Source: Heptranchias perlo (lineage: Eukaryota). From it: DNA of 64,000 nucleotides. Shown piece after piece: positions 2,017-61,571 of this stretch (positions within the stretch are counted from its first letter, which is position 1; each line of letters opens with the position of its first letter). The position numbers and the translations under genes were made by a program. The stretch is taken from NCBI RefSeq assembly GCF_035084215.1, contig NC_090364.1, positions 4,650,001 through 4,714,000 on the forward strand, in the 5' to 3' direction. The notes below the pieces were generated by a model. That model had not been told where the DNA came from. It searched no databases and was given only the letters and a program-made list of their open reading frames with translations.

Positions 2017-4261
2017 TTAATCACTCGCCCCCAGGGTGAGCTTGTCAAACAGGTACACTCCCATGCCATTCTCAGGGGCTCCCAATCTCTTCAGGTTGGT
2101 GATGTGATCGCCAAGCTTCTTGATCATCTTCACTTGTTCATCCAAGTAGTCAGTCTCCAGGAAGTCACACAACTGGAAGAGAATAGTTATGTCCAGCAGC
2201 AGATATCAAGGAACTTCCCCTAGAGTTTGGATTTTAATCCTCTTGGACTGGAGGATAGTCAAGTGGTACACTTCAGATTGATGGAATTACTGCATTATTA
2301 GAGTAAACTTACTGTACAACAGGTGCATAGATCCTCATGACACTTACTTCTCAATGTCCACAGTAGGTAAACCTCCCTGTCTCCACTCAAAATCCCAAGA
2401 TAGACAACCCTACACAAAGCTATTGGCTCAAGAACTGTAACATTCCACCTCCAACTTATCCAAAAGCCCACATTAGAACTTACATGAGGGTCTGTCCTCT
2501 CAGTGGAGAGTTTGTGCAGATCCAGCAGACTCTGGTTCACATTCTTCTCCATCTGCAGAGCTCTCTGCATCACCTCCAGACCATTGCTCCACTCATCCTG
2601 CTCTGGCTTCTGAAAATTCAGAACATTTAAAAATTCCATGAACATCTGATGCTCTCATGGCTAACTTCATGCAAGAATTGGAGTCATGGAGATACAGTTT
2701 GTGCCCCAGATAACTGAACAATGCTAGGTGAGAAATCACCAAAACAGGTTAATACTACAAGAAATCACACCAAGATTTACAGCACTAGACAGGCCATTCA
2801 GCCCATCATGTGTTCTAGATTTGGCACACAGAGGACTCCAAATTAATTCCACTGCCCTGCCTACAAGCATAGACATGCAAGCATTATTGGTACCTGTACC
2901 TTATACAGCATGTGAGGAGTTATGTTTTATTCTCATTGACTTGAGAATGTATCAGACATTTCAGTGTTTCCCTACTGCTCCAACTGAAGGTAAAGATGTT
3001 TGACAATGTTATATTAATACCCCCACATAAGGACAATATCCTCTATAAACCCAATATTGCCACTTACTCTACTGCATGTTCATCTACTCTACCCCTTGAG
3101 GAATGGTCTTTGGTCCAACTAGTCCTTCATCACAATCTTCTTGGCTTTTGTACTGCTTATCCAGATTGGTTTTAGCAAATTGCACTCAAGGAATTATATT
3201 TCCACCCTGGTCTGTTTCTCCAACATTTTGCCATATCCAGTTTTCAACTGTGGTCCAGTCACTAATATTTCTCCACAGCTAACCTTGATGTCCTCCAGGA
3301 CAATACAGCCACCACGTCGATTCTGGAATTTCATCAGTTTCTCAGCATCCTCCCATTTCTCATGCGACTGCTCCGTGAAAAACTTGGTAAAGTGACGCAG
3401 GGCAACATCATCCCGGTCAAAGTAATAGGACTGAGGAGAGAATATTGAAAACAGAATTATGTCAGACCTAGATCTCACCTACATACAGTTAGTGCTCAAA
3501 GTTTCTTCAGAAATCAGATACCATTTGTTTACTAGTAAAATTCAATTTACTTCACAAGATGTTCAATAGCTTCCCCCCTCCCCAATAGGATAATAAGTGG
3601 ATCAGAGAAAAGTAGCAATTAAGGTCATGGAATTACATTTCATATCAACTCAATCTACTTTTAAGTAAGTTGTACCTCCTTTTACTCCATTCTAGTCTAA
3701 AATTAGTAGGGGAACAAGAGACAATTCTCTCATTCCAGTAAATTTACACTCTACAATCATTTAGTGTAATAGAGATCTAGGAACAGTAAAGAAAGCTTCA
3801 GCACTAGGAGTCACAACAAGAAAACTCATGAGGACCTGTCAACATTTCACTGGCTACAGTCACCCCATTGAAACTGAAAGTTGTCAAATGCTGACAAGCA
3901 CTTGACCAGGTTTCTGCTCTTCTCTTACAAACTCAGGCAGCAGCTGAGCAAGGTTCATATTAAACCCCTCAATAGAGTGCAGGTGCTGTGAAGAGCAGTC
4001 CATTAACTCTACAAGATCACCCCATATTACTCACTGGCCAAAGATTTTTCTTCCCAGGGAGGTGGAAAGAAATCAAGAGAAATATACTTTAAAACCAGTT
4101 TATTGAACCAGAGAAATCCCAACTACTTAAAATGCAGTGACAATTAATCAAAAACTCACCATGGAGAGGTAAACATAGGAGGAATAGAGCTCCATATTGA
4201 TCTGCTTGTTGACACCATCCTCACACTCCTTGTGGTAATTCTGACACACTTGGGAAGCCAT
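2017..4261 (-). CDS. Ferritin H/M-type subunit, copy 1 (176 aa); ferroxidase ligands altered (E62K, H65D)
   Basis: Exons 4160-4261, 3284-3430, 2484-2609, 2017-2172; GT-AG, phase 0. [34 protein letters not shown] / [49 protein letters not shown] / [42 protein letters not shown] / [51 protein letters not shown]. Confidence 0.95.
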
Positions 4262-4340
4262 CTTTACTATTTCTGTATTAGTACTTTTCACTATTACTCA
4301 AAAAGTTCTAGAACTACCTTCTTCCAGCAAAAGCTCTTGT

Positions 4341-58825: not shown

Positions 58826-61571
58826 TTAATCACTCTCCCCCAAGGTGAGCTTGTCAAACAGGTACACTCCCATGCCATTCTCAGGGGCTCCCAGTCTCTT
58901 CAGGTTGGTGATGTGATCTCCAAGCTTCTTGATCATCTTCACTTGTTCATCCAAGTAGTGGGTCTCCAGGAAGTCACACAACTGGAAAAGGGAGACATTT
59001 TCATTAATGCAGCTATTGGATCAGTTTATTGAACAAATTGCTTTTCAGGCAGTCTGGATCTAGTCACTCTCCAACTTCAGGAGATCTGTCCTAATAAAAA
59101 AGTGACTATTCCACAAGAATCAACTCCTGCATCAAACCGTCCCACCATCGCTTCTTTTCAAATGTCTGCCCCTCACAAAAGACTGGTACTAACATCACCG
59201 TGTCCATCAAGATGAACAGATGGACTCTTGAGAATGTCATTGGTGAAAGTCTGCAATAGACTCTACTCAGTACACAAGGCTTCGAAGTGAAAAGCTATTC
59301 AGAACTCAGTCTGATGTTGAAGAATGGCACTGGCTGAGACAACCTGAAGTAATCAACAAATAAACGTTAATACCACAAGGTATTAAGGACTTACATGAGG
59401 GTCTGTCCTCTCAGTGGAGAGCTTGTGCAGATCCAGCAGACTCTGGTTCACATTCTTCTCCATCTGCAGAGCTCTCTGCATCGCCTCCAGACCATTGCTC
59501 CACTCATCCTGCTCTGGCTTCTGAAAGTTCAGAACACTTAAAATTCCATGAACACCTGATGCTCTCATTGCTAACTTCATCCAAGAATGGGAGACAGTGA
59601 GATAACTGAACTAAGTACTTGTTGCCATGTGAATAGAGACCACATGCCTCATGCTCTGTCTGATCTATTGACCAAACCAAGTTTTAGATTACAAAAAATC
59701 ACCAAAACATGTTAGAGAAATCACACCAAGATTAGTCACATTTGCAGCACAAGTCAGGCCATTCATCCAATCATGTGTCCTAGATCTTGGACAGAGGAAT
59801 AGAAATAGAAAATAGGAGCAGAAGTAAGCCATTCAAGCCTGCTCCACCATTCAGTATGATCCCCTCTCCCATATTCCTGCTCTCTCCCCATACCCCTTGA
59901 TTCCGTGTGTCTAGAAATCTATCTAGCTCCTTGGTATATATATTTAGTGACTTGGCCTCCACAGCATTCTGCGTTAGAGAAATCCACAGGTTCACCACCC
60001 CCAGTGAAGAAATTTCTCATCAGTCCTAAATGTTGTACCCTGTATCCAAAGACTGTGACTCCTCTAATTTCACTGCCCTGCCTGTAAGCATAGATGCACA
60101 AGTATTATTGGTACTTGTACCTCATACAGCAGGTAAGGAGTTGTGTTTTATTACCTCATTGAACACAGTATTATCAAGTCAGGCATTTCAGTGTTTCCCT
60201 ACTCTATTTTGTAATAGATGCAAAGGATTTATGTCAATACCATTAATAATTAAAACCTCCACACAAGGACAACATCCTCTATAAACCCAACACTGCCTCT
60301 CCCAGTTCATGTTTATCCACTCCCCCTTGAGGAATGGTCTTTGGTCCAACTATTCCCTCATCACAGCAATCTTCTTGGCTTTTGTACCTCTTATCCCTAC
60401 TGGTTTCAGCAAAGTGTGTCCATACTCAAGGAATTATATTTCCACCCTGGTCTGTTCCAACATTTTGCCATTTGTATTTTAACTGTGGCCCAGTCACTAA
60501 TATTTCTCCACAGCTAACCTTGATGTCCTCCAGGACAATACGTCCCCCACGCTGATTCTGGAATTTCAGCAGTTTCTCAGCATGCTCCCGTTCCTCATGT
60601 GACTGCTCCTTGAAGAACTCAGCAAAGTGACGCAGGGCAACATCATCCCGGTCAAAGTAATAGGACTGTGGGGAGAATATTAAAAACATCATGTCAGACA
60701 CAGACCTCACCGACATACAATTATCCATTATTTCACCCACCCCCACCCCATCAGCAAGTACTTAAAGTTTCTTTAGAAACTAGAAATCATGTTAACAAGT
60801 AAAATTCAAGTTATTTCACAAGATTTCCAACAGCTTCCCCCTCCCCAATAGGGAGGTGAAAGATTCAATCACTCAGACAAAAGTAACAATTAAAGTCTGG
60901 GGTTGCATTTCATGTCAAACTCAACTTCTGAGCAAGTTGTAGCTCCATTTACTCTCCATTCCAATCTAAAATTGGTGGAGGAACAAGACAATTCCTTCAT
61001 TCTAGTAGTTTTACACTGGAGTCTACATTTAGTGTGATAGAGATCTAGGCACAGTGAAATAGTCATCACTAGGATTCTCAAAGAAAGAAAAACAGTGAGG
61101 ACCGGTCAACATTTCATTGGCTACAGTCACCCCATTGAAACTGAAAGTTGTCAAATGTTGACAAGCACTTGACCAGGTTTCTGCTCTTCTCTTAAAAACT
61201 CAGGCAGCAGCTGAGCCAGAAGTATTTTAAGCCCCTCAATAGAGTGCAGCTGCTCTAAGGAGCAGTCCAATAACTCAACAAGATCACCTTATATTACACA
61301 CTGCCAAAAGATTGTTTCCCCCTCCCCCCACCCAGGGCAAGGTGGTGGGGGTGGGGGGGGAGGGGGGGACAGAGCAATGGCAGAAGGAATGAAATATAGT
61401 TTAAAGCCAGTACTGAACTGCAGAAATTCTTACTACTTAGAATGCAGTGACAATTAATACAAGACTCACCATAGAAAGATAAACATAGGAGGAATATAGC
61501 TCCATATTGATCTGCTTGTTCACACCATCCTCACACTCTTTGTGATAGTTCTGACACACTTGGGAAACCAT
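58826..61571 (-). CDS. Ferritin H/M-type subunit, copy 12 (176 aa)
   Basis: Exons 61470-61571, 60519-60665, 59395-59520, 58826-58981. [15 protein letters not shown] intact. Confidence 0.95.
59799..60060 (-). mobile_element. CR1-type LINE 3' end in intron 2 of copy 12
   Basis: Minus frames give LMRNFFT and [28 protein letters not shown], followed by a CR1 tail with tagaaa repeats. Confidence 0.8.

What the first reader, a model, noticed from the sequence alone, without database searches (positions are those of the whole stretch)
2017..61571. At least 12 apparently intact ferritin genes in a head-to-tail tandem array
Seen: 12 four-exon genes with no frameshift or premature stop that I could find, each with a TATA box and splice sites. 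Spacer sequence continues at both window ends. Established: mammals have single intron-containing FTH1 and FTL genes plus retrocopies; tandem ferritin expansions exist in some fish. Inference: retention of intact genes in a TE-rich, recombining locus suggests dosage selection for a high-output role, such as oocyte/yolk iron loading, secretion or iron withholding.
Basis: partly seen in the sequence, partly recalled or inferred. Interest (0 to 1): 0.7.

Follow-up and report, generated by a model that had tools for sequence, protein, structure and literature searches.

The report
Shark tandem ferritin gene array
These twelve intact iron-storage genes are a slice of a huge ferritin gene cluster already reported in other sharks as ovary-expressed, but here they lack the usual iron-sensing switch and three copies have an altered iron-oxidising site, which suggests a dedicated egg iron store.

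Summary
Observation confirmed: 12 intact four-exon ferritin genes lie head-to-tail on the minus strand, about 5 kb apart. Five encode proteins matching RefSeq Heptranchias perlo models, so the array is already annotated. A Greenland shark preprint reports 155-179 copies in three clusters, the largest ovary-specific. Same-sample DNA contigs hold copy-unique stretches, and one of three RNA-type runs holds spliced transcripts with copy-specific 3' UTRs; its tissue is unknown.

My searches did not find four features in print:
(1) No copy has an iron-responsive element.
(2) Copies 1, 6 and 10 have lost the ferroxidase ligand equivalent to human E62.
(3) All 12 carry Lys at the Arg that human FTH1 needs to bind NCOA4.
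(4) Near-identical exons sit between unalignable intron types, and the proteins group by species, pointing to exon-confined homogenisation.

Best reading: a dosage-amplified, iron-independent, cytosolic ovarian iron store. Secretion is not supported. The scan's earlier notes held nothing on this. Known kind; modest interest.

The parts
2017..4261 (-). Copy 1 CDS (exons 4160-4261, 3284-3430, 2484-2609, 2017-2172); 176 aa; E59K + H62D (human E62, H65); intron types i2 A, i3 B; TATA at 4347
   Evidence: identical to P0127 = XP_067830516.1; exact 3' UTR contig 1913-2026 in run X5
7350..9290 (-). Copy 2 CDS, 176 aa, ferroxidase ligands intact; i2 B, i3 B; TATA at 9370
   Evidence: exact 3' UTR contig 7216-7359 in X5
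12304..14193 (-). Copy 3 CDS, 176 aa, ligands intact; i2 B, i3 B; TATA at 14273
   Evidence: spliced joint 12459-12815 in X5 and X9 (exon flanks are shared, so not copy-specific)
16633..18992 (-). Copy 4 CDS, 176 aa, ligands intact; i2 B, i3 B; TATA at 19074
22079..23965 (-). Copy 5 CDS, 176 aa, ligands intact; i2 B, i3 B; TATA at 24045
   Evidence: identical to P0143 = XP_067830523.1
26539..28862 (-). Copy 6 CDS, 176 aa, E59N (human E62); i2 A, i3 A; TATA at 28948
   Evidence: identical to P0188 over the aligned columns
31639..34025 (-). Copy 7 CDS, 176 aa, ligands intact; i2 B, i3 B; TATA at 34107
   Evidence: identical over 176 aa to P0015 = XP_067830514.1
37854..40363 (-). Copy 8 CDS, 176 aa, ligands intact; mosaic: promoter and intron 1 closest to copy 11, but i2 A and i3 A; TATA at 40453
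43933..45377 (-). Copy 9 CDS, 173 aa (in-frame 9-nt deletion in exon 1), 143-nt intron 1 and promoter of a third type, 3' half close to copy 7; TATA at 45450
45383..48510 (.). Foreign-type spacer between copy 10's 3' end and copy 9's promoter, almost wholly unmatched elsewhere in the window. With copy 10's 3' UTR and copy 9's promoter and intron 1 it forms one block, probably from a divergent unit type (inference).
48522..50831 (-). Copy 10 CDS, 175 aa, E59N; i2 A, i3 A; unalignable 3' UTR; TATA at 50917
   Evidence: identical to P0187 over the aligned columns
54128..56011 (-). Copy 11 CDS, 176 aa, ligands intact (M23T, R60W, W90C); i2 B, i3 B; TATA at 56103
58826..61571 (-). Copy 12 CDS, 176 aa, ligands intact; i2 A, i3 A; TATA at 61658
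4262..4580 (-). Example promoter and leader (copy 1): several CCAAT-type boxes, a TATA box and a leader of about 58 nt with no IRE. The same motif order occurs in all 12 copies, including the divergent copy 9 promoter.
   Evidence: X5 coverage falls to about 0.6 in bin 4462-4888

Best explanation
This is a 12-gene slice of the cartilaginous-fish ferritin mega-cluster, in Heptranchias perlo or a very close relative. Each 5-kb unit has a multi-CCAAT + TATA promoter that makes a short-leader mRNA with no IRE, so translation cannot be repressed by IRP1/2 and output is set by copy number and tissue-specific transcription. The product is a cytosolic 24-mer ferritin, most likely made in bulk in oocytes or ovary to store and detoxify maternal iron for large yolky eggs. 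Most subunits keep the H/M-type ferroxidase centre. A minority (copies 1, 6, 10) lost the E62-equivalent ligand and would act as L-like or inert co-assembling subunits. All three introns are phase 0 and the exons are the only homology shared by all units, so crossover and conversion in exons shuffle promoter, intron and UTR types and homogenise the coding sequence without breaking frames. SHOWN: gene structure, intact ORFs, purifying selection, no IRE downstream of the TATA box, mosaic introns, species-wise protein clades, spliced transcripts concentrated in one of three RNA-type runs. FROM LITERATURE on another shark: ovary specificity. INFERRED: oocyte as the cell type, iron-independent translation, loss of ferroxidase activity, weak NCOA4 binding, gene conversion as the mechanism.
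For: Structure. Selection: pS 0.124, pN 0.023. Copies 6 vs 10 show 19 intron indels in 1763 aligned bases and none in the first 174 codons (expected 5.6, P 0.004). IRE: 0 Rfam hits at gathering score, no IRE among 16 weak hits at E<=10, no CAGWG between TATA and ATG in 12 of 12. Expression: X5 laid 1091 contigs, exon bins at depth 3,230-112,150, exact GT-AG joints not listed for DNA run X1, exact 3' UTR contigs of copies 1 and 2 (at most 85% like any other window place). X7 and X9 laid 97 and 107 contigs, exon bins 0-50. Published: 155/179 copies, three clusters, largest ovary-specific (10.1101/2024.09.09.611499). Ferroxidase: local residue i = human i+3; E62K/H65G abolishes activity (PMC6929972); E62K alone suffices in FTHL17 (PMC7760355). 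Homogenisation: exon 3 differs at 0.027 of sites both in 28 pairs with both flanking introns unalignable and in 27 pairs with both alignable; copies 4 and 8 have identical exon 3 between unalignable introns. AU tests reject a shared tree for introns 1, 2 and 3. All H. perlo rows but one divergent copy (P0212) form one clade, 100/93.
Against: The tissue of X5 is not on record, the four runs are one sample, and contig depth is a poor measure of expression. RNA was laid only on copies 1-3, so copies 4-12 are untested, and no contig shown is specific to the altered exon 2. The shark ovary is enclosed in the lymphomyeloid epigonal organ (PMC5568229), so an 'ovary' signal need not come from oocytes. 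A live-bearing shark yolk-protein paper never mentions ferritin. Exons 1 and 2 have pS of about 0.19-0.20, no lower than alignable introns, so homogenisation is clear mainly for exons 3 and 4. Copy 1's private changes (5 nonsynonymous, 1 synonymous) look neutral. The E59 change was seen in only 1 of 56 array-like proteins from other species (a sample biased towards intact copies), so the altered subfamily may be lineage-specific decay. No positive control for IRE detection was run.
Confidence: 0.65

Rival explanations
1. Immune or iron-withholding role: the array is expressed in the epigonal lymphomyeloid tissue that surrounds the shark gonad, and IRE loss allows ferritin synthesis at low iron.
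For: The ovary is enclosed in the epigonal organ and ovary libraries carry immune genes (PMC5568229). The tissue of X5 is unknown.
Against: The preprint calls the expression ovary-specific. Purifying selection and homogenisation fit dosage better than diversification. Ferritin mRNA is abundant in zebrafish follicles and is reported in amphibian and snail eggs (PMC1488847).
Confidence: 0.12
2. Birth-and-death turnover with little selection on copy number: unequal crossover inflates the array, conversion keeps ORFs open passively, and the E59-altered copies are decaying.
For: Mosaic units. Copy 1's private N:S ratio is 5:1. Odd substitutions occur in single copies (P85L, W90C, R76P). The altered type was seen almost only in one species.
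Against: Private changes overall give omega of about 0.22 (P 1e-7 vs neutral) and about 0.33 in the altered trio (P 0.04). Promoter motifs are kept in order even in copy 9's unalignable promoter. Large arrays persist in sharks separated by about 250 My.
Confidence: 0.15
3. Non-storage role in oocytes, such as a bulk structural or nutrient protein, an antioxidant or anti-ferroptosis buffer, or a regulatory role like germ-cell FTHL17, with iron storage secondary.
For: FTHL17 is a germ-cell ferritin with E62K, no ferroxidase activity and six mouse copies (PMC7760355). Added cysteines (C6 in 12 of 12 copies vs Arg in 50 of 62 non-array proteins) could add redox or disulphide chemistry.
Against: 9 of 12 copies keep all seven ferroxidase residues, and 12 of 12 keep the 3-fold-channel D131/E134 equivalents.
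Confidence: 0.07
4. Assembly artefact.
For: None found. No long read spans the array in the runs laid.
Against: Copies are at most about 90% identical over long stretches. Run X1 covers 30 of 30 bins and holds copy-unique intron and spacer contigs at depth 11-16 with 0-1 differences; this is probably the source sample, so it is not independent. Similar arrays exist in other sharks.
Confidence: 0.01

Closest known systems
Ferritin clusters of Greenland and white shark (bioRxiv 10.1101/2024.09.09.611499; section 6 and passages read)
   Same: Very large tandem ferritin expansion, mostly full-length copies, several clusters (H. perlo records lie on three contigs), tissue-restricted expression.
   Different: The preprint calls the copies FTH1 and FTL and ancient duplicates. 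Here no copy is L-type, the proteins cluster by lineage, and a close relative is about 69% identical to an engineered human H chain (my count from the alignment).
RefSeq Heptranchias perlo 'ferritin heavy chain B-like / oocyte isoform-like' models (e.g. XP_067830514.1, XP_067830516.1, XP_067830523.1)
   Same: 5 of 12 window proteins match such records; 28 distinct H. perlo ferritin records were seen.
   Different: These are automatic names only. I checked just the members the tools listed, so the other 7 copies may also be on record.
Vertebrate FTH1 and M-type ferritins
   Same: Four exons, PF00210, H-type ferroxidase residues in 9 of 12 copies, cytosolic N-terminus.
   Different: No IRE; Lys at the NCOA4-binding Arg; Cys at position 6; about 100 copies; a separate chondrichthyan clade whose sister group is not resolved (82/53).
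Mammalian FTHL17 (PMC7760355, passages)
   Same: Germ-cell expression, multi-copy in mouse, E62K loss of ferroxidase activity (as in copy 1).
   Different: X-linked mammalian gene (intronless, recalled). The shark genes have introns and most keep the ferroxidase centre. Convergent, not orthologous.
Snail yolk ferritin (PMC10799875, passages)
   Same: IRE-less ferritin tied to egg provisioning.
   Different: Snail yolk ferritin has a signal peptide and a 42-aa insertion; the shark proteins have neither.

Membership tests
Vertebrate cytosolic ferritin | Ferritin domain, about 175 aa, aligned without gaps to solved ferritins | tested here: met
   Relatives carry PF00210; P0020 (97% to copy 12) aligns 2-176 to human H 5-179 without gaps
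Vertebrate cytosolic ferritin | Four exons, three spliceosomal introns | tested here: met
   12 of 12, GT..AG, phase 0; two introns seen spliced at exact positions
H/M-type (ferroxidase) subunit | E27, Y34, E61, E62, H65, E107, Q141 equivalents | tested here: met
   All seven present in 9 of 12 copies
H/M-type (ferroxidase) subunit, copies 1, 6, 10 | E62 and H65 equivalents | tested here: not met
   Copy 1 has K and D; copies 6 and 10 have N and H
IRE-regulated FTH1/FTL | IRE in the 5' UTR | tested here: not met
   No Rfam IRE hit; no CAGWG between TATA and ATG in 12 of 12; true 5' ends not mapped, no positive control
FTH1 | Surface Arg (R23) needed for NCOA4 binding | tested here: not met
   Lys in 12 of 12 window copies and 72 of 77 array-like proteins, Arg in 0 of 77; Arg in 48 of 62 others (PMC4592949). 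The effect of Lys on binding is untested.
FTH1 vs FTL/M locus | Orthology by tree and synteny | tested here: inconclusive
   The array clade's sister group has only 82/53 support and no L chain was in the tree; no genome is held for synteny
FTL (L chain) | Absence of the E27, E62, H65 ferroxidase set | tested here: not met
   E27, Y34, E107 and Q141 equivalents kept in 12 of 12; only E62 (3 copies) and H65 (1 copy) changed
Shark ferritin mega-cluster | Tandem, mostly intact, very many copies | tested here: met
   12 of 12 intact; tree places them in the shark array clade, 100/89; 28 H. perlo records seen; DNA depth at one exon-3 site suggests roughly 100-140 copies (rough)
Shark ferritin mega-cluster | Ovary-specific expression | tested here: inconclusive
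   Concentrated in 1 of 3 RNA-type runs, tissue not on record
Secreted yolk ferritin (snail type) | Signal peptide and 42-aa insertion | tested here: not met
   173-176 aa, no N-terminal extension or insertion
FTHL17 | Mammalian X-linked gene whose product lacks ferroxidase activity | tested here: not met
   Shark clade in the tree, 9 of 12 with an intact centre; FTHL17 itself was not in the tree

The most novel reading that the evidence does not exclude
Cartilaginous fishes have kept, since before the shark-chimaera split, a dedicated maternal ferritin that escapes both normal controls of vertebrate ferritin: IRP repression (no IRE) and NCOA4 ferritinophagy (Arg to Lys). Sharks amplified it about a hundredfold. 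Exon-confined gene conversion homogenises it, and in the Heptranchias lineage it has re-invented an H/L-like division of labour through E62K/N subunits, giving a long-lived iron vault for long gestation on yolk.
Probability: 0.25. Interest if true: 0.7.

Novelty: new member of a known kind. Interest (0 to 1): 0.4.

Why it matters
The array itself is not a discovery. The details turn a one-paragraph genomic curiosity into testable biology: why sharks hold over a hundred ferritin genes, how vertebrate eggs stock iron without IRE control, whether ferritinophagy resistance and L-like subunits evolved again independently, and how an old protein-coding array is homogenised through exons while its introns diverge beyond alignment. 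It also suggests that 'FTL' and 'FTH1' counts in shark genomes may describe one separate paralog clade.

Tried and rejected
No whole genome is held, so neighbouring windows and synteny were not examined.

Rfam found nothing at gathering score. The 16 hits at E<=10 are far below their thresholds and were rejected. One IRE-shaped word (4 of 5 pairs, position 4555) lies about 200 nt upstream of copy 1's TATA box and meets the pattern in that copy only; rejected.

No holder was on record as RNA. The RNA nature of X5, X7 and X9 rests on the tool's guess; spliced joints back it in X5 and X9, and a cross-copy exon joint in X7. Uncovered bins were not used as evidence.

Secretion was rejected (no signal peptide). 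No other protein-coding gene was evident: stop-to-stop frames of 110 aa or more were antisense or overlapping ferritin frames, repeat remnants or unexplained spacer frames (judged by eye).

A difference in constraint between the altered trio and the rest was not detected (Fisher P 0.53). FTH1 versus M/L origin was not resolved. No window protein was compared directly with solved structures; residue numbering comes from a 97%-identical relative. No structure or complex prediction was run.

Earlier scan notes: 0 for this genome; 8 near matches, none on vertebrate ferritin.

Paper searches turned up no description of IRE loss, ferroxidase variants or gene conversion in shark ferritins, judged from listings plus the passages read. 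I recall a second Greenland shark genome paper on ferritin expansion and ferroptosis; it was not found and may cover part of this.
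Full report
OBSERVATION. The four exons of the leftmost gene each match 12 places, all on the minus strand and in order. All 12 ORFs are open, with GT..AG introns in phase 0 (exons of 102, 147, 126 and 156 nt). Ten proteins have 176 aa. Copy 9 has 173 aa (in-frame deletion) and copy 10 has 175 aa. Each copy has TATAAA 73-92 nt before the ATG, 3-6 CCAAT-type boxes upstream of it, and a downstream AATAAA; unit spacing is 4.8-6.3 kb. Long stretches are at most about 90% identical between copies. 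Unit-like DNA reaches the right end of the window but starts only at about 886 on the left.

IDENTITY. A search with exon 2 of copy 12 gave 1384 hits, of which 120 were listed; the closest single-domain hits were Heptranchias perlo ferritins. Copies 1, 5 and 7 equal XP_067830516.1, XP_067830523.1 and XP_067830514.1 (the last has one extra Met), and copies 6 and 10 equal P0188 and P0187 over the aligned columns. I saw 28 distinct H. perlo ferritin records on three contigs. The 90%-identity clusters of shark array proteins hold 180, 138 and 127 members from several species. The window is therefore an annotated part of a shark array, from H. perlo or a very close relative.

PRIOR REPORT. The Greenland shark preprint (10.1101/2024.09.09.611499; section 6 and passages read, supplements closed) reports 155 FTL and 179 FTH1 copies. 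About 80% lie in three clusters syntenic with white shark, over 85% are full length, and the largest cluster is ovary-specific. Its main text has no hit for 'iron' or 'IRE'. No window copy is L-type, so the two counts may partly describe the same genes (inference).

REAL AND EXPRESSED. Four runs of one sample were laid on 1900-14700, covering copies 1-3 only. DNA run X1 covers 30 of 30 bins and holds copy-unique intron and spacer contigs at depth 11-16 with 0-1 differences; those stretches are at most 83% like other window places. At codon 96 the two variants have DNA depths of 550 and 1014, roughly 100-140 times single-copy depth. The tool warns that depth is not copy number, so this is a rough hint only. 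Run X5 laid 1091 contigs, with exon bins at 3,230-112,150 and other bins at 0-134, apart from SINE-like bins (about 700-1,200). It shows joints at the exact introns 3430-4160 and 12459-12815, which are not listed for X1 (9 further joints were not shown). It also holds exact contigs over the 3' UTRs of copies 1 and 2, which are at most 85% like any other window place. X7 and X9 laid 97 and 107 contigs, with exon bins at 0-50. So copies 1 and 2, or near-identical copies outside the window, are transcribed, and the family is concentrated in one of three libraries. The tissues are not on record and contig depth is a poor measure of expression.

SELECTION. Mean pS is 0.124 and pN 0.023 over 66 pairs. 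Private changes are 25 nonsynonymous and 28 synonymous (omega about 0.22, P 1e-7 against neutrality). Copies 6 and 10 differ by 19 intron indels in 1763 aligned bases and by none in the first 174 codons (P 0.004). Promoter motifs keep their order even in copy 9, whose promoter barely aligns by BLAST.

NO IRE. Rfam gives 0 hits at gathering score and no IRE among 16 weak hits. There is no CAGWG loop between TATA and ATG in 12 of 12 copies, and predicted leaders are only 45-64 nt. X5 coverage drops to background in the bins just upstream of the TATA boxes, though contigs cannot fix a start. FTH1 and FTL are normally repressed through a 5' IRE (PMC7760355, passages), and snail yolk ferritin also lacks one (PMC10799875, passages). 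No positive control was run.

ALTERED SUBUNITS. A stored relative 97% identical to copy 12 aligns without gaps to human H chain, local residue i = human i+3. Nine copies keep all of E27, Y34, E61, E62, H65, E107 and Q141. Copy 1 has K and D at E62 and H65; copies 6 and 10 have N at E62. E62K/H65G abolishes ferroxidase activity (PMC6929972, passage), and E62K alone does so in FTHL17. The three group with H. perlo P0122-P0124 at 99/93. E62 is changed in 9 of 22 full-length H. perlo records held but in only 1 of 56 other array-like proteins. Both samples are biased by the exons I searched with. The second search found this exon type at over 84% identity only in H. perlo. The trio's constraint (omega about 0.33) does not differ detectably from the rest (0.19; P 0.53), and copy 1's private changes look neutral. 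An L-like role and slow decay both remain possible.

NCOA4 SITE. Human FTH1 R23 is required for NCOA4 binding and ferritinophagy (PMC4592949, passages; the mutant tested was R23A). The matching residue is Lys in 12 of 12 copies and in 72 of 77 array-like proteins, and Arg in none; 48 of 62 other ferritins have Arg (139 of 218 held proteins were 170-186 aa; array-like means at least 82% identical to a window copy). Whether Lys weakens binding is untested.

HOW THE ARRAY EVOLVES. Intron 2 comes in two types with no BLAST match to each other (copies 1, 6, 8, 10, 12 versus the rest), and so does intron 3 (6, 8, 10, 12 versus the rest). Copy 9's promoter and intron 1, copy 10's 3' UTR and the spacer between them form a third type. 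AU tests reject each intron's tree for the other introns; promoter and intron 1 are compatible. Yet exon 3 differs at 0.027 of sites whether both flanking introns are unalignable (28 pairs) or alignable (27 pairs); four-fold sites differ at 0.069 and 0.047. Copies 4 and 8 share an identical exon 3 between unalignable introns (pairs are not independent). Exons 1 and 2 are less uniform (pS about 0.2). In a tree of the 12 copies and 64 proteins that I chose from 218 held, the window copies and 10 of 11 H. perlo records form one clade (100/93) inside a shark array clade (100/89). An old array with lineage-wise coding sequences fits concerted evolution through exons; lineage-specific birth-and-death would give a similar tree. 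FTH1 versus M/L origin is unresolved (82/53).

FUNCTION. The most likely reading (0.65) is a dosage-amplified, IRP-independent cytosolic ferritin that stores maternal iron in oocytes. Ferritin mRNA is abundant in zebrafish follicles and is reported in other eggs (PMC1488847, passages). Against this, a shark yolk-protein paper has no mention of ferritin (PMC10015161, term search only), and the shark ovary is wrapped in lymphomyeloid tissue (PMC5568229, passage). Classical secretion is not supported. Rivals are an epigonal immune role (0.12), passive turnover (0.15), a non-storage role (0.07) and artefact (0.01).

NOVELTY. The array is known in kind and annotated in RefSeq. IRE loss, the Lys at the NCOA4 site, the E62-altered subfamily and exon-confined homogenisation were not found in searches. 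That library lacks most subscription papers, and I recall but could not find a second Greenland shark paper on ferritin expansion. Verdict: new member of a known kind, interest 0.4.

Noticed in passing
window 36019-36680: A 670-bp near-perfect palindrome (93.7%) between copies 7 and 8. Each arm carries a motif shaped like a minimal hammerhead ribozyme core and resembles shark Penelope-like element ends (labels recalled; Rfam gave no such hit).
   Followed up: no
window 40680-41315 (+), with remnants near 14778-15258, 19410-19812, 24698-25181, 34443-34863 and 45897-46010: The 3' end of a Tx1/L1-like retroelement (label recalled) sits just upstream of copy 8's promoter. Older related remnants lie upstream of several other promoters, some in the opposite orientation, which could mean repeated targeting of this spot.
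   Followed up: no
window about 5005-5390 and equivalent places in other units: A tRNA-headed SINE-like element (label recalled) is part of the duplicated unit, so it predates the duplications; it draws contigs in all four runs.
   Followed up: partly
window 348-665: 68-bp tandem repeat, 4.7 copies, 93% matches, at the left edge where unit-like sequence ends.
   Followed up: no
window 45285-48521: A block from the end of copy 10 to intron 1 of copy 9 belongs to a divergent unit type, with both apparent breakpoints in or next to exons. Copy 9's three-residue deletion removes E12-C13-E14.
   Followed up: partly
P0109 versus P0029, P0149, P0154, P0158 (Scyliorhinus canicula): A canonical-looking ferritin (in the group holding mammalian H chains, 89/78) lies on a contig of the same length (27,685,257) as array copies, a weak hint that the array shares a chromosome with it.
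   Followed up: no
P0010, P0076, P0080, P0110, P0189, P0209, P0211 (turtles): Turtles also show several ferritin 'heavy chain A-like' paralogs, some with Cys near the N-terminus, which may be a parallel expansion in another yolky-egged lineage.
   Followed up: no
P0108, P0064: Vertebrate-type ferritins labelled as bacterial (Aeromonas, Ciceribacter); P0108 groups with a catshark protein at 100/96, so it is probably host contamination.
   Followed up: no
local residue 141 (human 144), all copies: Met in 12 of 12 copies and 76 of 77 array-like proteins versus Ala in 41 of 62 others: another array-specific residue near the ferroxidase site.
   Followed up: no
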